From positions 60,698,001 through 60,762,000 of the forward strand of contig OZ076415.1 in assembly GCA_964187785.1 (NCBI GenBank): a stretch of DNA of 64,000 nucleotides, in the 5' to 3' direction. The notes beneath the pieces are model-generated. The model had not been told where the DNA came from and made no database searches. It saw nothing but the letters and a program-made list of their open reading frames with translations. Position 1 is the stretch's first letter, and each line of letters starts with the position of its first letter. Positions 9,107-39,688 of this stretch are shown one piece after another. The stretch comes from Amphiscolops sp. MND2022. Its lineage: Eukaryota. The position numbers and the translations under genes were made by a program.

Positions 9107-9175
9107 CTCGAACCCAACTACACGGAGAGAATCTCACTGACGACAGTGTGAGAAATCAGTCTTTACCATCAGTCC
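9107..9175 (-). other. Second tRNA-like/SINE-head relic
   Basis: Minus strand TGGACTGATGGTAAAG (A-box-like)...GGGTTCGAGTCCCGCGCTGTACCA (B-box plus CCA). Confidence 0.35.
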
Positions 9176-19575: not shown

Positions 19576-19704
19576 AACACAAAAGGGTATACCTAAGAGA
19601 CCAAAAAAGGGGGGTAGCGCAGACTAGGGGTATCTTACTGAAAAGCATGGAAACATGCGAAGAGCAGGACAGTCGTCCAGAGTTTTCAAATAGAGGGTGT
19701 ACAC

Positions 19705-19936
19705 TGAGCATCATCATCAGATGAAGAGTAATAGCGCAACGTAAAAATACGCGCGGTTGCATCACACGAGGTGATTACTATGTAAAGTTGAACATGGAAA
19801 CACGTTCCGGGGCATCACACAAGGTGAAGAATAAATGTCAGTGACCGAGGAGACACGTTCGAGAGCATCACATGTAGTGAAGCTTTGTTTGGAATGAACG
19901 CGGAAACGCATTCCAGAGGATCACTTGAAGTGAAGA
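19705..19936. repeat. 53-bp-period array of TCAC-N5-GTGA palindromes (4 clear, 1 degenerate)
   Basis: TCAC at 19762, 19815, 19868, 19921 (exact 53-bp spacing), each followed 5 nt later by GTGA; partly conserved ACRCRTTC..GCATCAC flank; spacers differ. Confidence 0.85.
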
Positions 19937-22338
19937 TTTGTTGAATTAATGATGTGAGTGTTATTGTGTGGTTGAAGTGTTATAAATAGCTGCGCTAATA
20001 GGAGGGACATACGGTTAGGAAGAGTGGGGGGATGTGTTGAATTCTCATGCGTTAGAGTAGAAGTAAGACTGTTACTGGTAGCATAATTAGAAGCGTTGAA
20101 ATTCGAAAGTTGAACAGGTCGTCGTAACGTTTCTTGTGCTAGTTCCTGCAAAGCATGGAACTCACTGACGGAAAGATAAAGGAAGGATGAATCATCATCT
20201 TGAGGCCGCTGAGAAGAGTCACCTATGATGTGCACAAAACGTCCATTGGTATCACGGAAGAACTGGTTAGGATGGGAGAACAGGCGTTGCCATTGTTGAT
20301 GAAAGAGGGTGAAACTGACACAAAAGGATAACAATGAGATGGTAATAGAGGTGAGAGAGAACAGAACTGCAGTTTTTGTATGCAGATAGGATGACAACGC
20401 AGCAGAAGTAGCAGGACAAATAGAGGAGTAGTATTGAGCGATCTGTCGTGTTAGTTCGTCCAATGTTTCCGGAGACGTACGCTGAACGTCAGGCAATCCC
20501 GCAAACTCCATACGGACACTATTAAGAACAGATTGACGAGCTTCGGCAATCGAATAAACGTGAAAACGACTGGATGCTTGAGGAACATGACGAAAGACTT
20601 GATCCAAAGAGAGAGTTAATTGAATAGATGCTATGAGGGGCTGGAGCTTACTTTCGCAAAAATCCATGTCAGGTGTTAGGACAAGATCTCCCTGAGTGAA
20701 GAGGAGAGGGTGCTTGTGCAGCTGGGGCGGATAATGCAAGCGTGGCAAGAAAGCGTTTGAACAGGGAGACCAGCAGTGCGACTATCATTTTTCATGTGAA
20801 GGGAAGAATAACGAGAGATGACATGATACATGCCATCTGCTAGATAAAAAGCTTGCTGAGCATCCGGTAAAAAGAACAGATTCCACTTTACAGTTACGAA
20901 TAGATGCGACATCATAGTTATAAAAAAGTGAGGATAAACAAAATAATGTATCATCAGAAGTAGTAGAAAAACCTTTTCGGCACAAATTAATACGGTTATT
21001 ATCAGAGCATTGTTGCATTGTTGACGCTCCAAGTTCTGCAAACTCTGTATTATCAATAGAGATGGTTAAAAAAGGCTGTGCAAGCTGATATAAAGAAGCA
21101 GTGGTGAGATCGTCGTTAGGTTGGTACAAAGGAGTGGCGTGATAAACGTTACAAGTAGAAGACTTAGAGTTCATGGGAACACCAAGGACAACTGAAATGC
21201 CAGTAGTTGAAAGTGAGACTTCCAAAACCATCTGTATTTCATAATAGATAGCTTTCTGTCCAACACGGATTGCGGGAGAAAGTTTTGTGCCAGTTCTCAG
21301 ACTATGGAGGCAAGTTGGTCCGGGATTAAAAACTGTGGTGTAACATATACAGCGGCAAAGGATAAAATTGTGGAAAACAAAGAAATTTTATAGGCGTAAA
21401 ATGCTGCTCGAAGACTTTTTACGTGCGTGTACAAGGTGTCTAATTGACCAATGTAATCACGAATTTGCTGCGCGATGACCACGTTCCGGGTTTCGTGTGA
21501 ATAGCATTCATGCAGAGTAGACAACGTGCCTTTTATTTTAGGAATGTCATTCTCGAAGGTTTTGATGTGAGTACCCACAACTTCTTTTATCTTTGCTACA
21601 CTTTCTTGAGTCCTTTTTATCTCATTTCCCAATAAAAAGAAATTTCTTTCATTTTTTGTTTGTACTCTCGTCCGAGTGTCTTGCAGTGCTTGCTGGTTTC
21701 TCATTATATTGCGAACACCAGCCTCAAGGGCTTTATTTTCAGTGCAATGGCTAAAATTTGAGAGTGCTGAACATGCAGCCTCTTTGACTGGGTCACCTAA
21801 CACCAGTCCCGTAGCACCTGCGGCTGCCGCTATTAGACCAAGGGCCTCTTTTTCTCCTATGGTCCACGTTTTGCGGTTCCTGTGGCAGTAACGATTTCGC
21901 CACCCGGAGTAACTCCGTTTTATCTTTGTGTGCGTCTCGTATTTCCTGCTCCAGTAGAGTCAGTTTCGCTTCAAGTTCGTTGAACAAGAGTTCAAAAGCA
22001 TCGTTTATCCTGGCCGTTTTGCATAATTTGACAGTAAACTTTCCGGTGAGCGTATCAAAGTGTCCTCTAGTCTGCAGTTTGGTGTGGGCATCAGTCAAGT
22101 TGATTGCCGGATTCTCCAGGAATGGCGAAAACACTCGAACTTTGCTTTCACTTTCCGGAGTGACAGCTTGGTATTTGAAGACATATGCGGCTCCCTTTTT
22201 GAAGACCGAGGTTTGGTCTGTGTTGACGTTGGTGTTGTACTGCGCATCATAGGAGCTCGAGACTAGACGGCAGAATACGAAAAGGGGGATGAAGAAAGAA
22301 TATTGAGTCAAAGTTGACATTCTTCGAAGTCTAATCAC
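19921..22338 (-). pseudogene. Envelope/fusion glycoprotein (class I, F-type architecture), frameshifted
   Basis: Signal-peptide-like YSFFIPLFVFCRLVSS; furin site RRKR followed (after a 1-nt shift near 21846) by hydrophobic ALGLIAAAAGATGLVLG; heptad region; Cys-rich ectodomain; TM AVLFSLTSITISLLSFCVSFTLF. Split over ORFs 21793-22338, 21297-21803, 20785-21231, 19921-20748. Confidence 0.8.
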
Positions 22339-23180
22339 GTCAAGCAGTAGTACAGTGGGTGTAGTGCAGAGAAGCGGATGTGCGGAGGTAGTTTTTTAGT
22401 GTTGTTAGCACTTCTTGCCAGAAGTTTTCGTGTCCTTCGTGGACTAACAAACTCAGTAAAAGATTTGGGGATTTTTGCTTTATAAAGCGGAGCAGCGTTT
22501 CTCTGATTTTGTGTACTCTGTCGAAAAGTCCGAGTCTGTAGTGGGAATTCAGTTGAAGTCTTCGTTGACTTAGACGTCGCTGGCCGGGCAGACGTTAAAT
22601 ACGCGTTGTTGGTAGTCGAATGATCCGAAAAGGAAGATTGAGTTTGATTGGGTACAAAGTGTGTACGCTTCAAATTGCGAGCAGCATTAGTAATAAAAGA
22701 GTCTGAAGTAGCAGTCGAAGTTGGATCATCACAAACTTCTGAACGAAGTGGTGAACAGAAAATTGGTTGAGGGAAGTCAGTCACGGAGGGTTGATGAAGA
22801 GAGTGGGTGTGCAGCTCAGGCTGCCAGGATGTGAAGGTTGAAGGGACAGCAGTGGGTGTCTGCTGTGTGGCACGGATGTGGCACAGGTGGGGACGGAGTT
22901 GGAGTTAGGGGAAACTTGCATTGTTGGTTGTTTCAAAAGTTCAGGATAGGCGTTGGGAAATGGAACAAAGTAGGACTCACAGTCCTCATAGTCATTAACG
23001 TTACATGTTCCCAGCAGTTCTTTGTGGGTTTCAGATGTGGTGACATTGCGTTCAGGGAAATTAGTCAAAGCTGCATGCGTTCCGTGATAACGCTTCAGTC
23101 GTTCATAATGGACTACTTGTTGCTTTTTAGTGCTGACTTCTTCAATCAAAGAACTCACATCACTCAATCATTTGATAATT

Positions 23181-24218
23181 TTATACGATCCTCACATTGG
23201 GCTGGCTAAATTTGGGCTTCGTCCTGCTTTGACAACAGGGTAATACAAGAGGACCATTTCGTGCTCTTGGTATGTGGGACCATGTACGCGTTTTGTTGTA
23301 CAAAGCGTTGCGTCGCCGCTGTTGAGCTGTACTGCTTTTGCGAACAAGTTCGTATGCTTTACGGAAAGCAACGGTTCGATTTTGGACAAAGTTGTGCACT
23401 GTAGGGGGGTCGTCACTGTTTTGTGGTGAGAACATCAGGTCGAATGGTAGTGACGTTTCTCTACCGAAAACTAAGAAGTGCGGGGTGTATCCTGTTGATT
23501 CGTGAACAGAGGAGCGATATGCCATAAGGACATATGGTAGCTGCTGTGAACAATTCTGTTGGTCTTCATCGACGCACTTAGCTAACATACTAAGTAGGGT
23601 GCGGTTGATCCTTTCACAGACTGCATTGGATTGTGGGTGAAACGCTGTTGTCCTCGTCTTGTCAAATTCTAATCGCTGCAACAATGTCGTGAACAGTTCA
23701 GATTCGAAGATAGGTCCTCGATCAGTATGGATGCTGTGCGGACATCCGAAGTGACAGATCCAATGTTGAAAGAGCGCATCGGCTGTTGTTTGTGCCGTCC
23801 AATTGGGCAAAGGTACGGCTTCGTACCATTTGGTGAAGTGATCACCGATCTAGAGGAAGTGGTGGTTACCATTGGATGGGGGTAAAGTTCCGATGAAATC
23901 GATACTGATGTGGTGAAAGGGATAGCTCACACGCCAATCAATGAGCGAATGTCGATGAGTTTTCGGTGGATTGGCTCGCTTTTGGCATTTGTCGCAATGT
24001 TCAATGTGCAGTTTGACATCATCTTTGAAGCCAGGCCAAAAAAAACGCTCACGGATTTTCTCCATAGTTTTGAAGACACCCAAATGACCAGAGGTGAGAG
24101 AATCATGCATGGAAGTAAAAACTTTCGAGACAAGCGAAGGAGGAATTATTTGTTGGAGATACGGTAGATGATTATCTCGGGGATAGAATTCGCCGTCTTC
24201 TTGGGGTACATTTGCCAT
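23181..24218 (-). pseudogene. Gypsy integrase (HHCC and DDE), disrupted
   Basis: HDSLTSGHLG..CDKC zinc motif; IDFIG, HTDRG, CERINRT catalytic residues; broken into several ORFs. Confidence 0.92.
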
Positions 24219-24387
24219 CCCAGTCGTGGAAGGCCCTGTAAATCTGTATTGGTAGGGATTTCATTGTTTTTGACCGAACGACGAACGTGTTTGAGTGTCT
24301 CGTCGGCTCTCTGAGCATTGGCCATAGGACTGACTTGAATGTAATCAAGGGGCGTAGAACTAGCGGATGATTTGTGTGGCTCCATGA

Positions 24388-24770
24388 AATAAACAATTAT
24401 TTGGATGCTGCAACCACGGAATGTCTCCTTGATCAACTGTCGGACCAAATCCCAATCAAGTCGTTCTAGGCCTCCTCGTATGCAGGGTAAGCTCCTTTGT
24501 GGCGTGGACTCGCATGAACTCGAGAAAAGCGCGTAATGTGCCATATGTGAGTGGTGTTTTGACGAGTGACTAAGTGAGAGATGTAACGCCTGTCTGAGGA
24601 ATCCATTGAGGCCAAAGAGGTTGGATTGTGTGGTCTAAGTTAGTAGGGTAATTGGTTGGATAAAGGCTGAGGAGACACTGGGCAAATGTGATGGTGATAG
24701 CAAAGTCAGCGGATACACAATGGGCAATCGACGTGTTTGCATCAAGTACATTGCCCGCTAGTTCTTTGTA
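24388..24770 (-). pseudogene. Macro domain (Poa1p/OARD1-TARG1-like) between RNase H and integrase in Pol
   Basis: YKELAGNVLDANTSIAHCVSADF...RYISHLVT...SLPCIRGGLERLDWDLVRQLIKETFRGCSIQIIVY matches the OARD1-type pattern LAHCISED..YYLITK..LSMPRIGCGLDRLQW..I.EVF...I.VY (from memory). Confidence 0.75.
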
Positions 24771-25800
24771 ATGCTCATTATCAATTTCAGTCCCAGGATT
24801 GATAGGACCAATGATCTCTGCAATTCTTGCGGCTCCTCGTTCAGCCCAGTCATCTGAGCATTCAGACTCGGTTTCTGAGGAGAAGTTTTCAGCTACACCA
24901 TTGACGGATGCTGGAGGGATCCGTGTTAGGCCATCGGCATGACCAATTTTCCCGGACGATGTCGGACGTCGTAGTCGAAAGCAGCTAATTTTCAATCCAA
25001 CGGGTGGTGATTACATCCGGATCTTTGAAGTCAATTGTCTGTTAGAATATTGACATTTTAAACGGAAAAGTGATTTTTTTTGAAGTTATATCAACGATAA
25101 AGAAAATTAGTTCGGTTTTCAAACCAAAACCACATAAATACAATTTATGCATTTTCTTCAAAATTGTATCTTGTCATTGGTTTTTGATGAAGAACTCTAG
25201 CACACTTTGTCAACACGTATTTGCTCTGCATAGCATTTTTTGGTAGATCCAACCATAGATCCCATATTGCGCGTTTTGATATCCATTAACGGCATCTCAT
25301 ACATAATACTGTAAGCAGGAGATTGTGCTCGGAGATTTGAATCGTTGTATGACAGAATTCATTTGCGTTTGATAACTTGTAGACGGACTGAAAATTAGTT
25401 TCAATCGTTACGGCAAAACGACGGTCCAAAAACAGAAATTGCATTTCTCAACCATTTCTTGAAAATGTTTCCGAAGAAATCCCGGCACCCACAGAAGAAA
25501 ATTTTGTGACACCTGAAACAGATGGTAATCAGTTTTCATGTTTTTTTTTGAATGGAACTAGGAACTAGAGAAATTCCCAATGTTTCATCCAGGTTGTATT
25601 TTTTATTGAATATGTTGTAAAATATCATCGTGTAAAAAACTCAAGCTGGCTCACCTCACTTCAGGGTCAACGGGTGTTGTTTTGATCTGATTTTTACTGC
25701 TCCAAGAGATGTTTGTTTCTCATTTATAAATTTATATGCTCCTTGCACAACCGTCAGTTGATCGTTTTATATAAAAAGATCAAACACTTTTGGTGTTGTG

Positions 25801-25948
25801 AGTAGTCATAAAAGCAGGAACCCTGGGTCACTTTTGCTCCGTTTTCGTGAATGTGAACTAATTTGTACGGGGGGGGATTACCGTGAAATTAAGACTGTTG
25901 GTGTGGGGATATAACCTTGAAATTCAGACTGGTTTAAATGGGTGGGGC
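25801..25948 (+). repeat. Left terminal inverted repeat (148 bp)
   Basis: AGTAGTCATAAAAGCAGGAACCCTGGG...TTTAAATGGGTGGGGC. Confidence 0.95.
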
Positions 25949-26088
25949 ATTCATTAGTTACGGCGCTTAATATGGAAAATCTAGACGCTGGTGGTTTTAT
26001 GGTTGATTAGTTTTATGTACTGCGAGCATATGGTGATTGTAAAGTTGCTCTCCGCGGAAATATTTCAAGTGGTTTTTGTTTACAAATC

Positions 26089-26627
26089 TCATGTGGTTAT
26101 TGTTTGCAATTCTCAAGTGATCTTGAATTGTGTGTCAGGCAACTGGGTGAGGTCTCATCTTTTGATAAACCAAGTCGACAGCTTCTTTCTTATTTAATTT
26201 GTTACAGCTTTCATGTCATTGCACAAAAGCCCAAGAGTTGTTTCGCCCATGTGCAGATAATTTTTCAGATACTTTCAAATAGCAATCACAGCGATCAAAA
26301 CTCCAGAAAATCCAGCAGCCATTTTACCTGGAGCAAAAACAACAATTGCTTGGTAAGTGTTTAACTTATTATTTAAAAAAAACTGGACATTCTGCGAATT
26401 GACCGATCTTCACAATTCAAGTGATTTTGAAACGAATTAAGTACACCAATTCTTTTCAATCCTGAATTTCCTGATTCTGAATATTTCAGAGATAGCCAAA
26501 CATCGAAGATTATTGTGATTTCTATTCCAATTCAAAATTCCAACAATCAGTACAATGAATGAGAAAACGAAACGGACAAGAAGCAGCAACCAAAAAACAG
26601 CAACAACTCAAGCAAAACTAATACAGG
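26089..26627 (+). pseudogene. Intron-containing cargo gene relic next to left TIR
   Basis: ATG TGG TTA TTG TTT GCA ATT (MWLLFAIL, signal-peptide-like); donors G|GTGAGG (~26147), TG|GTAAGT (~26353), AG|GTTGGT (~26627); acceptors TTGTTACAG (~26208) and ATTTCAG (~26489); frameshifts prevent a clean protein. Confidence 0.4.
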
Positions 26628-26947
26628 TTGGTTATTTGCTTTGTCTAAATTCATGATTTATTAACTAGAGTAACCAAAAAAAACCAATACGAAAAACCTT
26701 GCTCCCAGTGCTTTCAATGACTTTCATGTTTATAGATCATCGCCACTGTTCAACATCAAAGAATGGTCAAGGAATACAATGAACCTGACAACTATGAGAC
26801 GCTACTACTCTCCAGTTAAGTCAAAGAAAACTTTGAGCAAACACTGCATTTAGAGCTATATCTCCTGCATACATTTATCAGAATATATATTTCGTATCCA
26901 CACACACGCAAAACTGAAAGTCTAATTAATAATTACGTTGGTCTAAA

Positions 26948-29053
26948 AGTCTAAATTTCCATAATATTTATAGAGCTATAAAATTTCTTTAACTTGTCTT
27001 TGAGTAAAAATGGTAGCATTCCAGTGCAACATACCTTGGGTAACCTCTGTCCAATTGAAAATTTGGTCTAAATTTCCGTCATTTTAGAGCTATAATATTT
27101 CTTTAACTTGTCTTGAGTAAAAATGGTAGCATTCCAGTGCAACATACCTTGGGTAACCTCTGTCCAATTGACAATTTGGTCTAAATTTCCGTCATTTTAG
27201 AGCTATAACATTTCTTTAACTTGTCTTTGAGTAAAAATGGCAGCATTCCAGTGCAACATACCTTGGGTAACCTCTGTCCAATTGACAATTTGGTCTAAAT
27301 TTCCGTAATTTTAGAGCTATAATATTTCTTTAACTTGTCTTTGAGTAAAAATGGCAGCATTCCAGTGCAACATACCTTGGGTAACCTCTGTCCAATTGAA
27401 AATTTGGTCTAAATTTCCGTCATTTCAGAGCTTTAATATTTCTTTAACTTGTCTTTGAGTAAAAATGGTAGCATTCCAGTGCAACATACCTTGGGTAACC
27501 TCTGTCCAATTGAAAATTTGGTCTAAATTTCCGTCATTTTAGAGCTATAATATTTCTTTAACTTGTCTTTGAGTAAAAATGGTAGCATTCCAGTGCAACA
27601 TACCTTGGGTAACCTCTGTCCAATTGACAATTTGGTCTAAATTTCCGTCATTTTAGAGCTATAATATTTCTTTAACTTGTCTATGAGTAAAAATGGCAGC
27701 ATTCCAGTGCAACATACCTTGGGTAACCTCTGTCCAATTGAAAATTTGGTCTAAATTTCCGTCATTTCAGAGCTTTAATATTTCTTTAACTTGTCTTTGA
27801 GTAAAAATGGTAGCATTCCAGTGCAACATACCTTGGGTAACCTCTGTCCAATTGAAAATTTGGTCTAAATTTCCGTCATTTTAGAGCTATAAAATTTCTT
27901 TAACTTGTCTTTGAGTAAAAATGGTAGCATTCCAGTGCAACATACTTTGGATAACCTCTGTCCAATTGACAATTTGGTCTAAATTTCCGTCATTTTAGAG
28001 CTATAATATTTCTTTAACTTGTCTTTGAGTAAAAATGGCAGCATTCCAGTGCAACATACCTTGGGTAACCTCTGTCCAATTGACAATTTGGTCTAAATTT
28101 CCGTCATTTTAGAGCTATAATATTTCTTTAACTTGTCTTTGAGTAAAAATGGCACCATTCCAGTGCAACATACCTTGGGTAACCTCTGTCCACTTGAAAA
28201 TTTGGTCTAAATTTCCGTCATTTTAGAGCTATAATATTTCTTTATTTTGTCTTTGAGTAAAAATGGTAGCATTCCAGTGCAACATACCTTGGGTAACCTC
28301 TGTCCAATTGACAATTTGGTCTAAATTTCCGTCATTTTAGAGCTATAATATTTCTTTAACTTGTCTTTGAGTAAAAATGGTAGCATTCCAGTGCAACATA
28401 CCTTGGGTAACCTCTGTCCAATTGACAATTTGGTCTAAATTTCCGTCATTTTAGAGCTATAATATTTCTTTAACTTGTCTTTGAGTAAAAATGGCAGCAT
28501 TCCAGTGCAACATACCTTGGGTAACCTCTGTCCAATTGACAATTTGGTCTAAATTTCCGTCATTTTAGAGCTATAATATTTCTTTAACTTGTCTTTGAGT
28601 AAAAATGGCAGCATTCCAGTGCAACATACCTTGGGTAACCTCTGTCCATTTAAAAATTTGGTCTAAATTTCCGTCATTTTAGAGCAATAATATTTCTTTA
28701 ACTTGTCTTTGAGTAAAAATGGCAGCATTCCAGTGCAACATACCTTGGGTAACCTCTGTCTATGTGAAAATTTAGTCTAAATTTCCGTCATTTTAGAGCT
28801 TTAATATTTCTTTACCTTGTCTTTGAGTAAAAATGGTAGCATTCCAGTGCAACATACCTTGGGTAACCTCTGTCCAATTGAAAATTTGGTCTAAATTTCC
28901 GTCATTTTAGAGCTATAATATTTCTTTAACTTGTCTTTGAGTAAAAATGGCAGCATTCCAGTGCAACATACCTTGGGTAACCTCTGTCCAATTGACAATT
29001 TGGTCTAAATTTCCGTCATTTTAGAGCTATATTATTTCTTTAACTCGTCTTTG
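26948..29053. repeat. Tandem array of a 114-bp unit, ~18.5 highly similar copies
   Basis: GGTCTAAATTTCCGTCATTTTAGAGC...GTCCAATTGAMAATTT recurs at 27065, 27178, 27292, 27406 ... 29002; stops in all six unspliced frames. Confidence 0.97.
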
Positions 29054-29135
29054 CTTTCAGCTTAGTGAGCTAAAGTTTTGTTCTTTGTATTTCATTAATT
29101 TATCGAAATGTTCACCTTTTTTTTAAAAAAAAAAG

Positions 29136-29308
29136 CTCCCATGATGTAGACACAATGTACTGGGTAAGACGGGCCTAACCCAGCCTGCACAGTACGAGTG
29201 TCTACTGGGTCTTAGTATTGGTTAACCTCTCTTGGAGCAGGTAGACCGTTAGTGCTCTACTCTTCAAGAAACGGGTCGAGGTTAATCAAAGACTCCAGTA
29301 GACACTCG
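29136..29308. ncRNA. Candidate structured RNA/hairpin element, copy 1
   Basis: 114-nt imperfect hairpin 29195-29308 (14-bp perfect outer stem CGAGTGTCTACTGG/CCAGTAGACACTCG, 10-nt loop); the first 110 nt are duplicated at 29987-30097. Transcription not shown. Confidence 0.5.
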
Positions 29309-29513
29309 AAATCTCCTGCACAAGTACTGATTCGATTCGATTCGATTCAAATCTTTACTTTTCTTCCTCTTCAGTTTAAATACCTCTTTACAGACTATAT
29401 GGCGGTATCACATGTAAATTATGCAATTTCTCTACGTGGCATGGAATGTCTTTTTTTTGGTAGTGGAGAGCTTGAGATTTTGAAAATTGTTTCTTTGAAA
29501 TCATATGTCCTGT

Positions 29514-29780
29514 TGTACTTCCATAGGGGATAAGTTCTGTCGGTTTGAAAAATTGTTGATTATGTCCAGCATTTTAGTGTTTTCTTTGTCTTTAACTCTC
29601 AAAATGACTTACTTTAGTGTACTTTCATGGGGACAACTTCTGTCGGTTTGAAAAATTGTTGATTATATCCAGCATTTTTGCTTTTTAAATGTCTTTAACT
29701 CAAAATGGCTTACTTTAGTGTACTTCCATAGGGGATAAGTTCTGTCGGTTTGAAAAATTGTTGATTATATCCACCATTTT
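29514..29780. repeat. ~102-bp tandem repeat, ~2.7 copies
   Basis: TGTACTTCCATAGGGGATAAGTTCTGTCGGTTTGAAAAATTGTTGATTAT starts at 29514, 29618, 29719. Confidence 0.9.
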
Positions 29781-29986
29781 TGTTTTTAAATGTTTTGAGT
29801 AATATTTTAAGGGATCTTCTAAGTTCGATTGAAAAAAATATTGTTTATTTGTGACATTTTGGTGAATAGTTTGTCTTTGTCGCATAAAATGGTTTTGTTT
29901 AGTATACTTCCGTTTTTGTCGATTTTTCTTCCGATTCCTTGTGCAAATTTTGTCTTCCTCTCATTTGCTATTTGGTAATTTCACTA

Positions 29987-30159
29987 CTCCCATGATGTAG
30001 ACACAATGTACTGGGTAAGACGGGCCTAACCCAGCCTGCACAGTACGAGTGTCTACTGGGGTCTTAGTATTGGTTAACCTCTCTTGGAGCAGGTAGATTG
30101 AGCAAATTCTACTCTCCATTGTTGAGTTGAGATTAACCAAAGAGACTCCGGTAGACACT
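29987..30159. ncRNA. Candidate structured RNA/hairpin element, copy 2
   Basis: 5' 111 nt identical to copy 1 except one extra G; diverged 3' arm still pairs (CCGGTAGACACT, GAGATTAACCAA, TCTACTCTCC); 10-nt loop. Confidence 0.5.
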
Positions 30160-32820
30160 TTATAAACGAGAATACAGCCAAGGTCGTATTTTCAAAGTAA
30201 TACGACCTGTATACTTTAGCTCTTTTTTTGGAGCTTCTTACAGTCTTCTTGTTTCCGTTTCAAAATTTCTAGGACTTATTGTACAACTGTCGTTTCGAAA
30301 TTCGATGGACTATACAAAGAATTCAAGGACCCTTCGCTCTACAGGAACGAGTAGTCCTCTGTCTGGTTTCTGTTGAATTGTACTTCAACTAGAAAAATTC
30401 AGCCCTCCCTCTCCAGGATGTGATGCTAATATCTCGCTGTAATAATTGTTGTATTGCGTTGGAGTGAATTATGTCGAGTTTTCTATCTCAGGTATTGTTT
30501 CAATTTCGTATTTCAATTGAATCAATTTGATTGTTGGTGTTTTCAGCATCTGCAACTTGATTCCGGAAAACTTTTGAGATCAATTAGTGTACTTAGCTTT
30601 GTTTTTACTTTATCCTCAATTACCAACTTATGCAGATTGTTGCATTTTCGCGTTGGAATAGATACCACTGTGATTATTGATGTTTTTCAACCTCATCTTT
30701 GATTTTCTAGACGAAACTTCCTAAAAGTGAACAGATATCGAGTAAAACCAGACTTTTCAGCTGTACAGGTTGAACTTGTTCTGTTGAGTAGTAACAGACT
30801 ACTACTCAATATCTTTCAACTTTTTCCCACTTGAATTAGCTCCCAGCTCTTCACTATGTGACGTGGAACTCAAACTCTTCATTTGAAGACACTTCGCAAC
30901 ATTAGCAGGAGAGGTTATTAATTATTGAAATTTTGTAATAGACACCAGTTTGACTGATGATATTCATTTTTGGAACAGACGAACATAATCTCAGTTGCGA
31001 ACAATCAAGTACTGCATCCGATAAACGTCATCAATTTCATGCTTTGCTCCATCATGGGCGTTTTTGACAATGTCTATGCATTGTTTGTTGGTATTTTGTA
31101 TAGGAATAGACAGGATTGTTTTTTTATTGTCAACCTTGAAGTTGCGCGCGAGGCACTAGTTTATGAATTTTAACTGAATTTTGACTGTACTGTTGCAATG
31201 AAGAGAATATACCAATGTGAGTGTTGCTTCATCTTTCAGTTATTACTTTTGGAGGCAAATCGGAGATTACTTTTTTTTGTGGAAAACGGACCTTTCCGCA
31301 ATACTCAAAGCACCAAATAGTAGAATTATGTAACGTATTAAACAGCAGGCTGACTGTCGATGTTTTTTTATTGTTCGGTTGCTTTTGATATGGAATGGTT
31401 GAATGCAATCCTTATGCACTCTACTTCTCCACGGTTGAATCAAGGTAAATAAATTAGCTTTTACTTTATTTCCATGGTTTCAATTTGAAAATTTTTGAAA
31501 TTTCGTGGTGGAACAAGTATCACTGTGAATTCTTTTGTTTTGAAAAACGTTCTGAATTACATTTTCTAATCAATCTGATAACAGTCTTTTCTTCAACTGG
31601 TAATATTTACCTCGAACGAACTGAATATCTGATAATTACTGGTAGTTGTAAAAGGTATCAAAATAGTCATTAGGTTTTGACTTATTAATTGTTAGGTAAC
31701 GTTGAAACAGCACTTCAAGTAGTTGGCAGTTCACCTATAAGCCTTCTTGACTTTGATTTGCAACGTTTTATTTCAGAGAAGAAGTGAAAAAAACAGCATT
31801 GCTAGTTAGAGATTTTTTCGCCTGAAAGTGGTTTGGAAACATTGGACTCAATGGATACACATCTTTCCAACTGATGTTCATCTGAAATCCTTTCAAATGC
31901 CTGTCTAATGTAAACACTCGTTCAACTATTTATTTTGAAATTGCTCTATTTTGATGTTTATGTTTGAAGCATTGATTTTGATTTTCAAAAATTATCCATT
32001 ATGCAGTGTACTTGTGATTTCTTTCGGTACTGACTCTAAGACGTGAAGGAAGTATGTTATCTTTTTGGTAGTAATAATCCGTTAGCAACATTAGGTCTTT
32101 TTTTGTTGTTGTTTTCAACTGGATACATCAATCTCTGAGATTGACTCTTAACTGGCAAAACAATTTGTCAATAAGATCATGGGTTCACCTTGTTTCCCTC
32201 ATATGTCATTTCCAAAATAAATAAGTACGATTCGATGAAAAAAATTTCAAACGACAGTTTTCCTATTTTTTTTGTAAACCCACCACGGTCACAACCTTCT
32301 AAAGTTTTCCTGAACAAGTTCCACACCAATTTTGATTGACACCACTCTTGACTGTCGAAAATCTGAGAATTGGATGGAATTCTCGTATACATTTTGAATT
32401 GCAGCAACATTCAATTTTCACACTACAATACAATAAAATTTTAAAAACTATCAGTAGTTTTACAAGATGAAGGTTTCAAAAAGTTTTCAAATTGCGTTGA
32501 TAGAGATGCTCAAAAAATGTTCAAGATAATCCTGATTTCTAGAGTTTTCAACAATATTTTCGAGTGACAAGACCAACAACCTATGAACTGATTACAAAGA
32601 TTGTCTCGAAAAAGTATGCGTGTGTGTGGATTCCACTTAATATATTATGTTGCTTGTTTTAATAGTTTTTATTCATCAATTTTAGACAGTATTGAAGTTT
32701 AATGTAATTAGCATCGGAAGTTAAATTTACTTCTTGTAGTCTTTCGGTTTTGAAAAGTAATAAAGGAATACTAAATTGGCCAGACATTAAAGTTTAAGTT
32801 TCATAAAACAAATTAAAAAG

Positions 32821-35800
32821 TTAGGCTTCTTGAGCTTCAAACATGATGAATGGGTTTTTTCGCGCTCGTTTTGGCGGTGAGTACACTTGTTCGTCGTCGG
32901 GCGTGTCAGACGATAGGAAACCTGGGTCAGGTATATCTTCTTTCTCGCTCTCTGTGCTTCTTTTATATGACACAACAAAGTGCTTCTCGTCCATTGATAT
33001 CGTTGGATCAACTAAAATCTCTGGCAATATACTTTTTGGCGATGAGTGGGGTATTTCATAATGCCCAAAAGCTAGGGTTTCATTCACATCTTCTTCAATG
33101 TATCGCTTGTTATCAGCACTGTTCAAAACAATTTTGTTGCATTCCTCAACAAAAAGCTCCAAGTTGTGAGACTTGATTGTTCGCATTTTCTCTTTGATCG
33201 TTAGCTTTTCAGACAGGACTCTTTTGTATAGATCGTGATGGAGAGCTTTCTGTACTATCTTCGTAACACCTTTTGCACACTTTTTGGATTTTACTGATGA
33301 TTTGATGCTGTACATTTTTGCTCTCAGTCCGACATACTCGCTGATGATTCCACTATTCATCTCGTCTTTCATCTTCAGTACTACTTTCTTGTTTTTATCG
33401 CAGTGCAAAGGGTGATCGTTTGGATAATCTGAAAAGTCAAACTCGTCCTGGATTTTTTGAAAGTCTTCGTACAAATTTTCCGTCTCAATTGCTAACAAAA
33501 GCGAGTCTGTGTCTGAGTAGAGAAGTTTCGCCTTGTCCCCATAAGTTGGTTTTATTGTTTGGTAGAGAAATTTGTACATAACCAACTTGGACAAATCCAA
33601 AACTGTAGCTCCAATGTATGTAGGTTTGTTCCAGGTTACTATCGACTTACCCATAATCAAAGCACATAGATTCGGTTGAAAAATTTTAAAAGATTTGAAG
33701 TTGGGTTTGCTAATAAACTTTTCACAATGGGTGTCATCTGTGAAAAGCTTTATATTTTGACGATTCGTCAAATCTTCCATGGATTTCCCAAAAACTGAAT
33801 TGTTTAACAATTTTCCGAGATCTTTCAAACAATCAGTTTTTGCTTTACGCCGAATTTCTGTGTTGATGTCAATAATATCATTTCATCCATTTGCTCTGCC
33901 TAAATTTGATAACTTTATGAACTTTTACCACTTGTAACCCATGAGAAACGTAAAATTTCAAAATCCTGTAGTGGCACACGTAATATTCCTTTGTGTTAAA
34001 TGTTTGCAAAAGCTTGAATGTTTCCCCTGATTCACACTTTTCTCGTGCTTGTGAAGGTGAGAGCATTTCTTTTGTTATTTTTAAATGCTCTGGTGCCAAT
34101 GGATAATCATTGTGTTGATCATGTAATTCTTTTGAATATTCCAAATCAACAACAACGAAAAATCCAAATTCAGCATCGTCAGCAGTTGCTAATACAGTTG
34201 CAAGAGAATCCGTTGTTTCTGAAAAGTTGCCAATGGGTAAACTTTCACGCATTACTCCTCCATAGAGATTATTAGCGTCTAATAAAATCATGCAGGTTTT
34301 TGGCTCTGTTGCGTTATAATTTTCACATTGTGGATTATTCGCTTTGAAAAATCTACTGTGAAAAACACCACATATTCCACCCCTGATTCCTCTCTTCACA
34401 AAATCAAGATGGTCTTTTTCTGATAATAAATCCAATTCAACCTTTGTTGTTTTGAGCATTGCTTCCCATGCAAAATGAGGAGCTGTAAGAAAGTGTGCTG
34501 GGTCCAGACCAAAATTGCTGTAAGCCAGTTGTCGAAAGTTCTCAAATACGTCGGCTAGGGTGTAAACATCAACTTGAAGATAAATATCATGATATTCCCC
34601 CAGATTTTTTATACCTAGGCAATGCCACACCTTTTTAGCGTGCTGGTAGTCTTGATCCGATATCGGTTCATTGGATAAAGTGTCAATCCAGATGGGGGGA
34701 AGTTCGGTTTCTTGGAACTTGTCAAATGAGTCCATATAGCTATAAGGGTAAACTCCTTTCTGAAGAATTAGATTTTGCTGATCTTGTGAGAAATGACTGA
34801 AACCTTCTTTGAAGGTAGTAAAGGGAATATTATCAGTCTTCATTGTTTCAATAAGGCTGCTCAATGACTTTGCTTGGAATCGGAAACCATCAATAAACTT
34901 GAGCTTTTCAAATGTAATTACCTTTTGATTTTGGTCATTCTGGAAAGACCCTGTTGGTACACAAATTGAAAAGCAGATGAATTCTTCAGAGTTGTTTGCA
35001 ATGCACTCTAGTTTTTCGTTACCGTCTCCAGGTCGATAATACCTCAGAAGTTGCTTAAAATCATACTTTGAGACATTGTGAAAAATAACTGGAGTGAAAT
35101 TTGGTGTTCTGCATGATATGTTACATTTACTATGGGCTATGCCTCGCAGTTTACCGGTAACATGATTATGCTCAAAAACCCTGTCGTTTCCGAGTGTTTC
35201 GTCACAAATAGAACAATCAACAGCATCTCTCAACTTTGTAAAATCACTAGTTTTCTTTTGGTAAAAAGGAAATCTTCTCTTGTCTCGATATATTTCTTTA
35301 GCCCAATTTCGAACCGTGTCCAAAAAACCTGTGACACAGCCCTCACTCCGACTGGAATATTGCTTTATCAGTTTCCCTTTTTCATTTAAGCATATTGCAT
35401 GAATGCCACAAGGTATTTGTTTTTCAACTTTTCGTGCATGTAATTGGTTGGGTGTGTAGGTAATTTTTGGTGTGATGGCCTCTATGTCTGCATAAATAAC
35501 AAACGGGGCTCGCATTCTTGCTGCAAAACTTTTCCAAGCCATCTTACCATTTTGTTTCATCTTTATTCGGCAAGGTTGTTCAGAACACATGAGTTGATGA
35601 TTCTTGAAGCGACTCAAGCTTGAACTTCCAGTCAAACAACGTCGACAGTAAAATTGATTCTTTTTCTTTGTTTCTCTTCGCATAAACCAATTGAAATTTG
35701 TAATTAAACAGTAGTGATAACGACCATCGTCCTCAAGTAGCAATAAATCCACCGGAAATCCATTTTTGTTGGAAATACGAATAGGATAAATTTCCTTATC

Positions 35801-36622
35801 CAGAGCAAAAACATTAATTGATAAATCATTAGCTCCTTCAATCCTGCCAATGTCTTTAATTGTCACAGGATTCTCCGCGTCACATAAGTCAATTTTTTGA
35901 AACTTTTCATATGTGCTAGGACGACTCTTCTTGTTTTTTATATCGCGATAATGTCTTGCTGCGAGAATACAAAGCTCAAAACAGTTATTTGCCTTGATTG
36001 TTCGGATATTAAGCAAGAAGTTATTGTTTGAAAACTTGGTTGGTGTTGGTATAAAGCTTCCAGCTCTGATGGGCTTGTTTCGAGCGAAATTAATACTCAA
36101 TTTCAAAATCTTCTTAACACTCCATCCAGAGCCATGCTGACAGAAGTTTTCAAACTGTTTCAGAATGTGATTTTTAATTTGGTCGAATGTTTCTCTCGAG
36201 AGACCCTCTGAATAAACAGCTTGCATTTTTGAGTTGAAACAAGTCTCAAATTCCAATTCAGTAGTTGGTTTGAATAATAAAACACACAAGGATAATTGGA
36301 TTTTCAAACTAGTTGCCTCTTGTAAGTTTTTGATAATTAATGAATAGAGGTTCGGATAGAAGTTATTTAGGAAAACAATGGGATCGAGGATTGTATTTTT
36401 TGGTTTAAAAGAGATAACTTTCAAGTAATTTCGCGTGGTATTCTCTTCAAAATCATAATCATCGCTGTCAGTTGTGTTCTCTCTTGTTGTTTCTGAGTTG
36501 GTTTGAGAATTTGACTCACGGTCGTTCGAATGATCTCTGTGTTTTTGGCGTACGTGTCTGTTCAGATTTTGCTTGTGTTTGTAACATTTTAAGCAAGTTT
36601 CACAACAAAATTTTCTCTCCAT
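32821..36622 (-). CDS. polB: Protein-primed family B DNA polymerase (Polinton type), one frameshift at ~33875
   Basis: Exonuclease motifs YADIEA, FHNVSKYDF, YLQVDV; polymerase motifs LLDANNLYG, KLLNNSVFGK, YSDTDS, KMYS..KCAKGV. N-terminal C2H2 finger CETC..HVRQKH and EndoVII-like CSIC..EHNHVTGKLRGIAHSKCN. The two ORFs join with a 1-nt shift at AAATGATATTATTGAC (KWMK / IDINTEIRRK). Confidence 0.95.
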
Positions 36623-36799
36623 AATGGAGGAGCGACTGGAAGGGTAGAATATACAACTTGTATTTGCAACAAAAGTTTTCAGTCTGTTTTTCAGAAAAAT
36701 TCATTAGGTATTGGTCAAAATGTTGGAAAGTTGGGATAGCCACTTCCTATTGGTCGCAATATTAAATATGTTTCCCTGTTGCGATCTTAATCACATGGA

Positions 36800-38720
36800 G
36801 TTTACAATCATTCATGTTTCAAGTCATTCTGTGAATTTCTTGTAGTTTTTCCGAAAAATTCTGTTCTTGACCTCAGAGAAGTTGTTTCTACTGAAAATTA
36901 AATACTAGGGAAGTCATATATAAATTATTTGTTATTTGTTTAGGTATAGTTTTAGTTGTAGTTATAGTTAAGCTATTTTTGACCACAGAAAGTGACCTCT
37001 TGAAAAGGCCTAGATGACTAGCAAGTTTCAGTTAAGGTGAAGTTTTTCTTAAACTCAAGAAGTTGTTTTTCTCTGGACCTTAGAAAGATACAAAACACGT
37101 AGTGAATTTCGATTTAACTTTGAGTCTCAAGACATTACTCATGTTCATAGTTATTCTTATAATCTTTAACCTCAGGAAAGTAATCTTCTTTTGAAATAGA
37201 AAACGAAATAGAAGCGATATTCAATTCAAATATTGAGTCTTGATTGATTAGTTTCATGATTTGCTCGTGAAGGTTATAAACAAAGTCATTGACAACATAC
37301 CTTCGTTAGTTATAAATCATAAATTATTGAATTTCAACACTTTGTTTCACGATTGAATTGGAACGAAAGCTTTATTACACTAAAACCAATCAAAGGCATA
37401 GACTTTTGATTCATTTTTTCGAAGCATCTAACACATGCTTTAGGAAACGCTCAAGGAGTTCAAGTAATTAGGGCAAGCTTCATGGCATAGATGATTATTC
37501 CATATTCACTTTTTACACTCTCTACCAACTGGAAACATAGGCTCCAAAGAGCTTGTTCGTGTCCTTGTAAGTTGTCTCCATCCACATAATATTGGATTGG
37601 GGTTACTGTCGTTGATGAGTTCAATCTTGGGACAACAAAATCGAATTTTGCTTTAACAGGAGGGGCGGATGAGAAAAAACGTTTGAGTTGCTCTTGAATT
37701 GTCACTGTCCAAACGAAGGCTCCACTATTCGATTTTCTGGCAATTTCTTGAAAGTATCGGGAATAAAAACTGCAGGATCCATATAAAAAAATTATGTAGT
37801 ACCTGAAGCAACATATGTAAAAGACAAATTGCGACTTGGGTGAGATACTTGAAACAGTTTAAAAATCGAGTTTTTTACTTACTTGATATCTGAGTCAATA
37901 GTCGTTGCTTCTATAGTTTCTTTTACTTCCAAAAGTGTGGTCTTCCTTGTTAAACCACCATCGATATTTCCCTCCACCATTACCATCTCGTCTTGAACTA
38001 GGTATTGACCAAACAGTTTTGTGTTGTTGCTTGTAAACGTCATTTTGAAGCGTTTCGAAGATTTTGAAATAAAACCGGATTTTCCGAAGAAGAAGTAACA
38101 ATAAAGTGAATCTGATAGTTGGTTGGCTTTCTTGAAATGGTATAGGGGAAAAATTACAATGACTGGAATATTTGTTAGACAACACCTTTCTATTGGCCAT
38201 ATTTCAGTGTTAGTCTTTTCTTTCATTCAAGCACAACTTGTAATATTCTCTCAGATATCATCAATTTCTATAACCTTCAATAACAAACTGTGAATAATTT
38301 CTTTTGTTAGTATTCTTGGGTATTCATTTCAAATTTGAAACATTCCATCTTTGATTATTCATACAACAAAGTCCATAACTATTCTGACAGATTATTGCAA
38401 TTAGATCACTCAATTCTTTCAACTCGTCAGCAAAACCGTCATTATCGGAAACAAATACGCTGTATAAAGAGGGTTTATTGGTTGTCCTGTTGTTACATTT
38501 TCCACCATAGTCCATTTAAGTTTTGCACCTTAAACATGTTGAAATTTAATGAAATATTAGATTTTAAAAAAATCGTTCTTTCAAATTACCTGTTTTGTTT
38601 GGAAACAATTCAGAAACATCAATTAACCACCACTGGAATCCAAAAGTTACTCATAAATTGTTCGAGGCATTCTTTGAAATTGTCACTGTCTGTTCGTTGG
38701 TATATAATAAGATACCTGTA
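36800..38720 (-). pseudogene. Intron-containing cargo gene relic between right TIR and pPolB, product unidentified
   Basis: Exon-like open segments (38324-38515, 37879-38226, 37460-37740) with a clear donor ATCAA|GTAAGT at ~37881, ACAG|GTAATT at ~38590 and acceptors AAATTACAG and TTTTCAG; premature stops. Confidence 0.45.
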
Positions 38721-38970
38721 ATTTTGTTGTTAATGAAAAAGTATACATATCACTTCTTGTAATAACTAGATATAACAACCTGAAGTTTTCACTTGGCTTT
38801 TGAACATATATTGAAACAATCAACTCCTGGAGTGTAGCTTCCCGTATCATTTAATCACAACTCCATAAATCATAGTATTTGAAGTACGGAAATGTTTGCT
38901 AAAACTCATATTAAGGGAGTGCTAGGGTGGAAACAGTATTAATTGTTATACATTTTACAAAAGAATTCAG

Positions 38971-39261
38971 ATGCAATTCCATAACTTGAAGTGGTTTTCA
39001 CTATACTTGAAGAAAATCTTCACTATAATAGCTGTAGAGATTCATGAAAAGGATCTACTTTTATTAACTTTAACCGAAAGTGGTGGCGATGTCACGATTA
39101 CTCTCGAATTTATGTCCCCCGCGTGGATTGAGTTAACACTTTATTTTCACCATCACAAGAGTCTGAAGGCAGTCCCTCGAAGCGAAAAATTACGTTATCT
39201 TTTTATGCGGAAGCGACTTACAGATCTCTTTGAAACCCAGAAACCTCCTTTCATGGATTGA
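38971..39261 (+). CDS. Small hypothetical protein inside right end of the Maverick
   Basis: 96-aa ATG-started ORF; no motif recognised. Confidence 0.3.
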   Translation: MQFHNLKWFSLYLKKIFTIIAVEIHEKDLLLLTLTESGGDVTITLEFMSPAWIELTLYFHHHKSLKAVPRSEKLRYLFMRKRLTDLFETQKPPFMD

Positions 39262-39540
39262 GTGTTTCTCAAAATTATATTCCAAATTAACCTCAGAAAC
39301 GAATTTCTCGCCGTTAGTTAACATCTTGACTCAATTATTTAACCAAGCTCTTGAAGTCACTCGATAATAACTTCTTTGATATTGAAAATATTGAGAAGAC
39401 GCGGCGCACCCTCTTTATTGACACACAAGTCAAACCTTTACGATTTTTAAACAAGAACCACTTGAGAATTCGCCCCAGCGCAAGTGGTAAAAATAACAAA
39501 TGGCACTGTACACATAAAAGCCCACGACGCGAGTAATAAA

Positions 39541-39688
39541 GCCACACCCATTTAAACCAGTCTGAATTTCAAGGTTATATCCCCACACCAACAGTCCTAA
39601 TTTCACGGTAATCCCCCCCCGTATAAATTAGTTCACATTCACGAAAACGGAGCAAAAGTGACCCAGGGTTCCTACTTTTATGACTACT
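39541..39688 (-). repeat. Right terminal inverted repeat (148 bp)
   Basis: Reverse complement of 25801-25948 with 4 substitutions; followed by TSD GTTGTG. Confidence 0.95.

What the first reader, a model, noticed from the sequence alone, without database searches (positions are those of the whole stretch)
29136..30159. Two paralogous long hairpins with structure-preserving divergence inside the Maverick (VA-RNA or pre-miRNA-like)
Seen: each unit has GTAGACAC, GTGTCTAC, GTAGACAC in that order, so the central site can pair with either flank (two mutually exclusive hairpins). The long hairpins (29195-29308; 30048-30159) share an almost identical 5' arm, but their 3' arms differ in sequence while keeping pairing: CCAGTAGACACTC vs CCGGTAGACACT, GAGGTTAATCAA vs GAGATTAACCAA, TCTACTCTTC vs TCTACTCTCC. 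Both have 10-nt loops of unrelated sequence. Established: adenoviruses, relatives of Polintons, encode paired structured VA RNAs that antagonise PKR and RNAi. Inference: a Polinton-encoded structured ncRNA pair or RNA switch. I saw no convincing Pol III B-box.
Basis: partly seen in the sequence, partly recalled or inferred. Interest (0 to 1): 0.7.

Follow-up and report, generated by a model that had tools for sequence, protein, structure and literature searches.

The report
Paired RNA-like hairpins in a Maverick
A virus-like transposon carries two related, unusually stable hairpin sequences whose pattern of change suggests a pair of small non-coding RNA genes, but no transcript or relative elsewhere has been seen, so this remains a good lead and not a finding.

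Summary
Two ~175-nt units (29136-29308, 29987-30161) lie inside a Maverick with AGTAGT ends, 156-bp TIRs and a 6-bp TSD. Each folds into a 44-45-bp bulged hairpin (z -8.8, -7.3). The first 110 nt are identical except one G. The 3' arm is conserved where it pairs (35/44, 37/43) and not where it does not (5/19, 3/21). This is not covariation: stem changes are one-sided Watson-Crick/G.U swaps, one change breaks a pair, and the covariation score does not beat shuffles. New: each unit follows a homologous tandem-repeat array (68% identical), so the duplication is old and the 110-nt identity needs homogenisation or strong constraint. The alternative 5' hairpin is real in silico, but it is a folding intermediate that loses by 6.5-9 kcal/mol. 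VA RNA membership fails (no box A or B, no three-domain fold). Pre-miRNA geometry is atypical. No Rfam match; no homologue in 53 related pPolB loci. Best reading (0.4): a duplicated element-borne hairpin RNA, antisense to pPolB, whose invariant 5' arm is the product and whose 3' arm only needs to pair. DNA-level and neutral template-switch explanations remain open. Sister copies of the element, which I could not fetch, would decide it.

The parts
25801..39688 (.). Maverick/Polinton-type element, 13.9 kb; the only recognisable hallmark gene is pPolB
   Evidence: AGTAGT/ACTACT termini and 6-bp TSD GTTGTG at 25795-25800 and 39689-39694; TIRs; no integrase, ATPase, capsid or protease found
25801..25956 (+). 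Left terminal inverted repeat
   Evidence: 156 bp, 96% identical to 39534-39688 inverted
39534..39688 (-). Right terminal inverted repeat
26949..29053 (.). 114-bp tandem array, 18.4 copies, upstream of unit 1
   Evidence: 96% matches; homologous to the 103-bp array
29136..29308 (+). Hairpin unit 1 (173 nt, 49% GC against 35% for the element)
29136..29245 (+). Invariant 5' part of unit 1: octamer site 1 (29146-29153), inner hairpin (29157-29195), 5' arm with site 2 (29198-29205); ends at the loop
   Evidence: identical to 29987-30097 except one G; alternative hairpin A spans 29138-29209
29195..29308 (+). Long hairpin B of unit 1: 45 pairs in stacked runs of 14, 5, 11, 8, 6, 1; 5-nt bulge in the 5' arm, 10-nt loop 29246-29255, 8-nt bulge 29270-29277, site 3 at 29298-29305
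29514..29793 (.). 103-bp tandem array, 2.7 copies, upstream of unit 2; diverged sister of the 114-bp array
   Evidence: 117 of 173 aligned bases identical; 0 of 300 shuffles reach the score
29987..30161 (+). Hairpin unit 2 (175 nt, 46% GC); octamer sites at 29997, 30049 and 30151
30046..30161 (+). Long hairpin B of unit 2: 44 pairs in runs of 19, 8, 3, 2, 5, 6, 1; loop 30098-30107; one C.A mismatch (30078/30132); 6-nt and 2-nt 3' bulges
30181..30208 (.). Separate perfect 10-bp hairpin just after unit 2, absent after unit 1
32821..36622 (-). [quoted passage not shown]
   Evidence: 35 homologues; the C-terminal frame matches P0001 at 77% and P0005 at 350/350
37879..38226 (-). Small ORF of unknown function with relatives
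   Evidence: 6 hits at E<=0.001, five of them short proteins at 60-97% identity; no Pfam match

Best explanation
The two units are an old duplicate pair of an element-borne hairpin RNA gene. SHOWN: the fold; the sequence pattern (invariant 5' part, 3' arm conserved only where paired, unrelated loops and flanks); the old age of the duplication; the lack of coding frame conservation (net +2 indels between units). INFERRED: the unit is transcribed from the + strand, antisense to pPolB, from a promoter outside the unit (possibly in or near the upstream repeat array). The transcript first folds into hairpin A, then rearranges into the 44-45-bp bulged rod B when the last ~10 nt are made. Rod B is handled by the host's dsRNA/small-RNA machinery (Drosha/Dicer/Argonaute type). 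The invariant 5' arm is the functional product or guide; the 3' arm is a passenger that only has to pair, so it tolerates G.U swaps. The complete identity of the 110 nt is probably helped by recombination between the two direct repeats, which stops at the unrelated loop and flank. The target would be outside the window.
For: Fold far beyond shuffles. With pairing defined from one unit alone and scored in the other, paired 3' positions are identical in 35 of 44 and 37 of 43 cases, unpaired ones in 5 of 19 and 3 of 21 (Fisher p 1.2e-4, 3e-8). Five consensus pairs vary on one side only, all as Watson-Crick/G.U swaps, and one lone apical pair changes on both sides (C-G vs U-A). Confident G.U pairs: 3 and 5 on the + strand, 0 and 1 on the - strand. 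Bulges sit at the same places in both units. The flanking arrays have drifted to 68% identity and spacers are unalignable, so the conservation is not due to recent duplication. An invariant arm with a wobble-tolerant partner is the usual pattern of miRNA paralogues (my knowledge). [quoted passage not shown]
Against: No transcript or small-RNA data. Only two copies; covariation does not beat shuffles (236 of 500). The strand lean is modest: binomial p 0.009 to 0.19 for 4 of 5 interior sites, depending on the assumed transition share, with classes counted by hand after seeing the data. z-scores on the two strands are close (-8.8 vs -7.8; -7.3 vs -6.5), and C/T differences outnumber A/G 19 to 6 in the neighbouring array, so mutation bias may explain part of it. 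The hairpins are also stable as DNA (z -8.1, -6.0). A 4-5-nt bulge falls inside the duplex that a basal cut would release, and the 5' flank is another hairpin, not single-stranded. One change breaks a pair. No promoter element found. No Rfam match. No complementary target in the window (best 13-mer, E 0.13). Long hairpins are common near related pPolB genes: 17 of 189 candidates were more stable per base than unit 1.
Confidence: 0.4

Rival explanations
1. No function of their own. A template switch made the inverted arms, the module was duplicated, and arm-to-arm template switching plus copy-to-copy gene conversion have kept the arms paired and the 5' parts identical.
For: Template switching is reported to create and maintain hairpins and to homogenise inverted-repeat arms (PMC8794818, PMC8604942; search listing and abstract starts only). 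The element clearly homogenises direct repeats: 114-bp copies are 96% alike but 68% like their sister array. Identity ends exactly at the unrelated loop. No true covariation.
Against: Repair at the DNA level should not favour G.U over A.C (8 vs 1 confident pairs, weak). It should also remove bulges, yet the same bulges persist in both units. The units are GC-rich islands with sharp borders.
Confidence: 0.2
2. A DNA-level cis element: single-strand hairpins that form on the displaced strand during protein-primed replication, or protein-binding sites (the octamer), acting with the upstream repeat arrays as a replication, recombination or packaging signal.
For: Stable as ssDNA, with little strand preference in unit 1 (-29.8 vs -27.8). 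Each unit follows a repeat array. An unrelated ~130-nt conserved hairpin with two-sided changes lies upstream of pPolB in 3 of 53 related loci, so such elements do carry conserved hairpins of unknown level of action.
Against: Polintons are thought to start replication at the termini (my knowledge), so an internal origin is not needed. Large bulges and G.T pairs disfavour cruciforms. Unit 2 prefers the + strand also as DNA (-24.3 vs -20.5).
Confidence: 0.2
3. An unprocessed structured RNA that works like adenovirus VA RNA: a decoy that ties up host dsRNA sensors or Dicer, with the A-to-B refolding as part of its maturation.
For: Two head-to-tail units of ~175 nt, close to the VA RNA size of about 160 nt. 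Helices are short (longest runs 14 and 19 pairs). GGGU and ACCC occur in the invariant part. T-runs follow both units.
Against: No box A or box B. No three-domain fold; 5' and 3' ends do not form a terminal stem. The tetranucleotides lie 16 nt apart, and 4-mers are expected by chance. T-runs are common here (20 on the + strand in 1350 nt). A decoy would not need every unpaired base of the 5' part to be invariant. The element shows no capsid genes.
Confidence: 0.12
4. Each unit is a terminally redundant template for a 152-nt or 154-nt rod-like circular RNA: joining site 1 to site 3 merges hairpins A and B into one closed rod.
For: Site 1 to site 3 spans 152 and 154 nt. Folded as circles these stretches give unbranched rods, 73-74% paired, z -6.6 and -6.7.
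Against: The closed rod follows logically from the octamer layout and is not independent evidence; the gain over the linear fold is about 1 kcal/mol and other end pairs gain as much. Redundancy beyond the octamer is not significant (266 and 396 of 2000 shuffles). No ribozyme: no Rfam hit, no exact hammerhead core on either strand.
Confidence: 0.04
5. The units are passengers: a host small-RNA gene, SINE or MITE captured by or inserted into this Maverick copy.
For: Sharp borders and high GC; a short microsatellite follows unit 1. Many strong hairpins near other pPolB genes look like near-perfect MITE-type palindromes (my reading).
Against: No further copy in the 64-kb window. No target-site duplication seen in the alignment of the flanks; shared sequence is asymmetric about the hairpin. 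No tRNA or Pol III box. Both units sit behind homologous arrays.
Confidence: 0.04

Closest known systems
Long (non-canonical) invertebrate miRNA hairpins and hairpin-RNA/endo-siRNA precursors (PMC12553114)
   Same: Unbranched imperfect stem longer than the usual 30-35 bp; internal bulge about 30 pairs above the base; one arm invariant between paralogues, the other varying through G.U; unrelated loops.
   Different: A 4-5-nt bulge inside the expected product duplex; a hairpin instead of a single-stranded 5' flank; 110 nt invariant, not 22; an alternative 5' fold; no sequence match to any Rfam family; no reads.
Adenovirus VA RNA I/II (PMC7589676)
   Same: Two head-to-tail non-coding structured units of similar size in a protein-primed DNA element; GGGU and ACCC present.
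   Different: No box A/B; no terminal stem, central domain or apical stem layout; units 851 bp apart (98-nt spacer in HAdV-2); no evidence of transcription or of a PKR-type target; host lineage not established.
Retrozymes and viroid-like circular RNAs (PMC7761336)
   Same: Short direct redundancy flanking a rod-like fold, in a mobile element.
   Different: No hammerhead or other known ribozyme; not a tandem multimer; redundancy only 8 nt.
ncRNAs catalogued in Polinton-like viruses and virophages (PMC12220804)
   Same: Non-coding RNA genes in this class of elements have precedent (tRNAs, group I introns, 10 miRNA hits, snRNA/snoRNA hits).
   Different: Those are Rfam matches to known families; the units here match none.
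Maverick/Polinton (adintovirus) elements (PMC8502044)
   Same: AGTAGT termini, TIRs, 6-bp TSD, pPolB.
   Different: No integrase, ATPase, protease or capsid gene recognised in this copy; the paper's main text has no occurrence of 'noncoding RNA', 'VA RNA', 'hairpin' or 'miRNA'.

Membership tests
Adenovirus VA RNA | Internal Pol III box A | tested here: not met
   No exact match to a recalled box A pattern in 29000-30400 (46 matches elsewhere in the window, chance level)
Adenovirus VA RNA | Internal Pol III box B | tested here: not met
   No match inside either unit; only 2-mismatch hits in the microsatellite after unit 1 (29329-29349)
Adenovirus VA RNA | Terminal stem, central domain, apical stem | tested here: not met
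   Predicted fold is a small hairpin stacked on an unbranched rod
Adenovirus VA RNA | GGGU-ACCC tetranucleotide stem in the central domain | tested here: inconclusive
   Both 4-mers occur (29162, 29178) but 16 nt apart near the 5' end, not paired in the + strand MFE; expected by chance
Adenovirus VA RNA | U4 terminator at the 3' end | tested here: inconclusive
   T4 at 29359 and 30189, about 50 and 28 nt past the hairpins; T-runs are frequent here
Adenovirus VA RNA | Abundant Pol III transcript that inhibits PKR/Dicer | not testable with these tools
   Needs RNA data and assays
Animal microRNA (MirGeneDB criteria, PMC12539619) | Imperfect hairpin with at least 16 paired nucleotides | tested here: met
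   44-45 pairs
Animal microRNA (MirGeneDB criteria, PMC12539619) | Reads from both arms, 5' homogeneity, 2-nt offsets | not testable with these tools
Animal microRNA (canonical geometry, PMC12553114) | 30-35-bp stem with single-stranded basal flanks | tested here: not met
   44-45 pairs, bulges of 4-8 nt, hairpin directly 5' of the base
Long invertebrate miRNA precursor (PMC12553114) | [quoted passage not shown] | tested here: inconclusive
   3' bulge starts about 30 pairs above the base in both units; cut sites are unknown
Any Rfam family (miRNA, snoRNA, ribozyme, viral RNA) | Match to a covariance model | tested here: not met
   0 hits at gathering score in the window; best E 1.4-1.6 in 29000-30400
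Retrozyme / viroid-like circle | Self-cleaving ribozyme | tested here: not met
   No Rfam ribozyme hit; no exact hammerhead core, one 1-mismatch hit in unit 1 only
Retrozyme / viroid-like circle | Rod-like fold of a circular monomer | tested here: inconclusive
   Rod, 73-74% paired, but implied by the octamer layout
Box C/D snoRNA | Box C near the 5' end and box D near the 3' end | tested here: not met
   1-mismatch box C at 29141 and 29992; CTGA only after unit 1, none in unit 2
Maverick/Polinton (host element) | AGT-repeat termini, TIRs, 6-bp TSD | tested here: met
Maverick/Polinton (host element) | Protein-primed PolB | tested here: met
   present in two frames
Maverick/Polinton (host element) | Retroviral-like integrase, ATPase, capsid genes | tested here: not met
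   No such Pfam hit among 69 short frames; no tblastn hit at E<0.05 to 53 loci, several of which encode integrase, A32 ATPase or jelly-roll capsid. Very diverged remnants could be missed; this copy reads as a deleted or non-autonomous derivative.

The most novel reading that the evidence does not exclude
The units are RNA genes of a new class, encoded by an animal-type Maverick: a transcript that folds co-transcriptionally into hairpin A and is switched into rod B only on completion, so that the invariant 5' arm is released as a guide or decoy against host silencing only from full-length RNA. In the boldest form (about 0.04) the repeated octamer marks the ends of a ribozyme-free 152-154-nt circular rod.
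Probability: 0.15. Interest if true: 0.85.

Novelty: new variant of a known kind. Interest (0 to 1): 0.5.

Why it matters
Mavericks are described almost wholly by their proteins. How they persist and spread in animal genomes under small-RNA silencing is open. A dedicated pair of hairpin RNAs would give them a counterpart to the small RNAs of adenoviruses and other DNA viruses, and a concrete thing to test. My searches of the held library found 0 papers with both 'polinton' and 'VA RNA', and none among the 8 and 7 papers listed for related terms described such a pair by title or abstract start; subscription papers are largely not covered. The family looks young and multi-copy (a pPolB cluster of 56 member sequences whose representative is 98% identical, with relatives at 61-72%), so the test by covariation should be cheap for anyone with the assemblies. 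If the neutral reading wins, the locus is still a clean example of conversion and template switching producing a pattern that mimics RNA selection.

Tried and rejected
Rfam at gathering score (window) and by E-value (29000-30400): nothing. tRNA scan: 0. Exact pattern scan of GTDB genomes: 0. blastn of unit 1 against phages and plasmids: no match at E<=1. Covariance model of the two units over the window and all 53 pPolB loci: only the units and their own reverse strands; with filters off over 24000-42000 no third copy, next best E 0.05. blastn of the units against the 53 loci: best E 0.3. A 12-of-13 match between the 5' arm and the 114-bp repeat looked like a target array but is chance (161 of 1000 shuffles). 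Extended terminal redundancy around sites 1 and 3: not significant. Coding explanation for the 110-nt identity: rejected, indels between units do not keep frame and overlapping frames have no Pfam match. Box C/D snoRNA, hammerhead: not met. A recalled likeness of a short motif in the inner hairpin to twister ribozymes, and of the unit to Helentron-type non-autonomous elements, did not survive inspection by eye (wrong order or orientation of the paired segments; no Rfam hit); these are recalled comparisons, not tool tests. TIRs and repeat units do not fold better than shuffles. One tblastx hit outside pPolB (38700-38774 to L030) falls in a bacterial carbamoyl-phosphate-synthase-like ORF and was judged spurious (the name is my reading of the sequence). 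ESM Atlas on ORF 37460-37858: no usable hit. Host lineage: the 120 listed of 171 relatives of a neighbouring retrotransposon protein carried no names, so it stays unknown. The hairpin census reported unit 2 under an overlapping, weaker window, so it ranks only unit 1 properly. The z-score scan of the element (244 windows, 12 shuffles each) put unit 1 first but gave 13 windows below -3, several inside pPolB; it is rough.

Full report
OBSERVATION. The octamer and its complement occur at 29146, 29198 and 29298, and at 29997, 30049 and 30151: 6 of 8 matches in the window, 1.2 expected. As + strand RNA, 29195-29308 folds at -58.0 kcal/mol (z -8.8) and 30046-30161 at -53.0 (z -7.3), with 0 of 200 shuffles as good; on the - strand the values are -51.4 (z -7.8) and -43.9 (z -6.5). 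In a 120-nt sliding scan of the whole window (3194 windows) the window on unit 2 ranked first and the best one on unit 1, not centred, sixth. The units are 49% and 46% GC in an element of 35%.

CONTEXT. The element runs from 25801 to 39688, with AGTAGT/ACTACT ends and a perfect 6-bp TSD and 156-bp TIRs at 96% identity. It encodes a protein-primed PolB on the - strand in two frames. The closest database protein is 98% identical to the first frame and 350/350 to the second and stands for 56 member sequences; other relatives are 61-72% identical. I read this as a young, multi-copy family. No integrase, ATPase, protease or capsid was found by Pfam (28 and 69 frames) or by translated search against 53 related loci, although several of those loci encode such genes (45 of 105 listed ORFs scanned). 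One small ORF (37879-38226) has relatives. The host is a eukaryote with Ty3/gypsy-type elements; its lineage could not be named, so whether PKR-type sensors are relevant is unknown.

ANATOMY. The first 110 nt of the units are identical except one G, and identity stops at the loop. This part holds site 1, a small inner hairpin and the whole 5' arm. The long hairpin has 45 and 44 pairs with bulges at matching places. Because the 5' arms are the same, two-sided compensation in the stem is impossible. On the consensus structure (55 pairs) five pairs vary on one side, all Watson-Crick/G.U, and one lone pair closing the loop varies on both sides; the covariation score is reached by 236 of 500 shuffles. 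That structure leaves out positions where pairing fails: G29281 versus A30132 breaks a C-G pair, the terminal pair is lost in unit 2, and the middle of unit 2's arm pairs differently. To avoid circularity I defined pairing from one unit and scored identity in the other: paired 35 of 44 and 37 of 43, unpaired 5 of 19 and 3 of 21 (p 1.2e-4 and 3e-8). So uniform random decay of a duplicated hairpin is rejected.

AGE OF THE DUPLICATION (new). Unit 1 follows the 114-bp array and unit 2 the 103-bp array. The two arrays are homologous (0 of 300 shuffles) at 117 of 173 bases, while spacers and downstream flanks do not align (285 and 249 of 300 shuffles as good). The module [array, spacer, unit] was therefore duplicated long ago. 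Zero substitutions in 110 nt at that divergence has probability 1e-11 or less. It needs constraint on every base, homogenisation by recombination, or both; the element homogenises its tandem array (96%), so conversion is plausible.

STRAND. Confident G.U pairs number 3 and 5 on the + strand, 0 and 1 on the - strand. Counting by hand only interior sites, 4 of 5 non-Watson-Crick appositions are G.U on the + strand; p is 0.009, 0.087 or 0.19 for transition shares of 0.43, 0.8 or 1. Against this, z-scores are similar on both strands, C/T differences exceed A/G 19 to 6 in the array, and the hairpins are also stable as DNA. The lean to + strand RNA, antisense to pPolB, is suggestive only.

TWO FOLDS. 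Site 2 can pair with site 1 (state A) or site 3 (state B). An exact complement within the upstream 59 nt has chance about 0.001. For + strand RNA, B wins by 9.0 and 6.5 kcal/mol (probability >0.999). In growing prefixes A dominates until the last ~10 nt are present. This is a predicted folding path, not a balanced switch. Closing site 1 onto site 3 gives a 152/154-nt rod, but that follows from the layout, and no ribozyme or longer redundancy supports a circle.

RELATIVES. None found: Rfam, GTDB pattern scan, phages and plasmids, and 53 loci with related pPolB genes, 491,779 nt, at 25-55% protein identity. These loci are too distant to be a strong test. They show that long hairpins are common near such genes (17 of 189 candidates more stable per base than unit 1), many of them near-perfect palindromes (30 inspected). 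Three loci share an unrelated ~130-nt hairpin that begins with AGTAGT, lies upstream of pPolB, folds better on the antisense strand and has 6 of 41 pairs changed on both sides; its model finds nothing in the window.

COMPARISON. VA RNA is defined by boxes A and B, a GGGU-ACCC stem, a U4 terminator and a three-domain fold (PMC7589676, passages); boxes and fold are not met. miRNA criteria need reads from both arms (PMC12539619, passages); only the pairing criterion can be tested and it is met. Canonical stems are 30-35 bp, but longer invertebrate precursors exist and need a bulge near the dicing site (PMC12553114, abstract and section 14); the 3' bulge here is roughly so placed, while a 4-5-nt bulge inside the product duplex and the structured 5' flank do not fit. 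Retrozymes need a hammerhead (PMC7761336, passages); none is present. ncRNAs of known Rfam families have been catalogued in Polinton-like viruses (PMC12220804, passages). The adintovirus paper's main text has no occurrence of four ncRNA-related terms (PMC8502044). Template switching can build and maintain hairpins (PMC8794818, PMC8604942; listing and abstract start only). I opened no supplementary files; the tables of PMC12220804 might list relevant cases.

VERDICT. A real, non-random, undescribed feature. Some form of selected RNA structure has my combined probability of about 0.55 (small-RNA precursor-like 0.4, decoy 0.12, circle 0.04); a DNA-level signal 0.2; neutral maintenance by template switching and conversion 0.2; a passenger 0.04. 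It works most like a long small-RNA precursor with an invariant product arm, and it is not shown to be a member of any family. Interest 0.5: surprising for a Maverick and directly testable with sister copies and RNA data, but resting on two copies in one element.

Noticed in passing
L022:5613-5743, L029:1-125, L036:1-130: A ~130-nt imperfect hairpin starting with AGTAGT, 0.7-1.3 kb upstream of pPolB, shared by three Polinton-like contigs; 6 of 41 pairs change on both sides and all fold better antisense to pPolB. In L022 it is bounded by AGTAGT and ACTACT. Possibly a conserved structured element or mini-Polinton; worth its own look.
   Followed up: partly
window 26949-29053 and 29514-29793: The 114-bp and 103-bp arrays are diverged homologues (68%); neither folds better than shuffles. 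Function unknown.
   Followed up: partly
window 25801-39688: A Maverick with intact ends and near-intact pPolB but no recognisable integrase or virion genes, from a multi-copy young family; how it integrates is unexplained.
   Followed up: partly
window 7233-7243 (-) and 9104-9114 (-): Two perfect Pol III box B 11-mers outside the Maverick with no tRNA called; possibly tRNA-derived SINE heads.
   Followed up: no
window 30181-30208: Perfect 10-bp hairpin 20 nt after unit 2; no counterpart after unit 1.
   Followed up: no
window 29117-29134 and 29329-29349: A T8-A10 run directly before unit 1 and a short pentanucleotide microsatellite after it; neither occurs at unit 2.
   Followed up: no
window 37879-38226 (-): Small ORF with five short relatives at 60-97% identity and no Pfam match.
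   Followed up: partly
window 7438-8080 and 8771-9935: Inverted arrays of 15-bp repeats and a 159-bp inverted pair at 70% identity, typical of MITE-like or foldback elements.
   Followed up: no
window 18466-25010 (-) and 56674-61355 (+): Fragmented LTR retrotransposons with integrase and RT domains; the first is followed by several further ORFs with no Pfam match that may be an env-like region (my guess).
   Followed up: no
L013:9774-10541: A cluster of related short palindromes downstream of pPolB in another Polinton-like contig.
   Followed up: no
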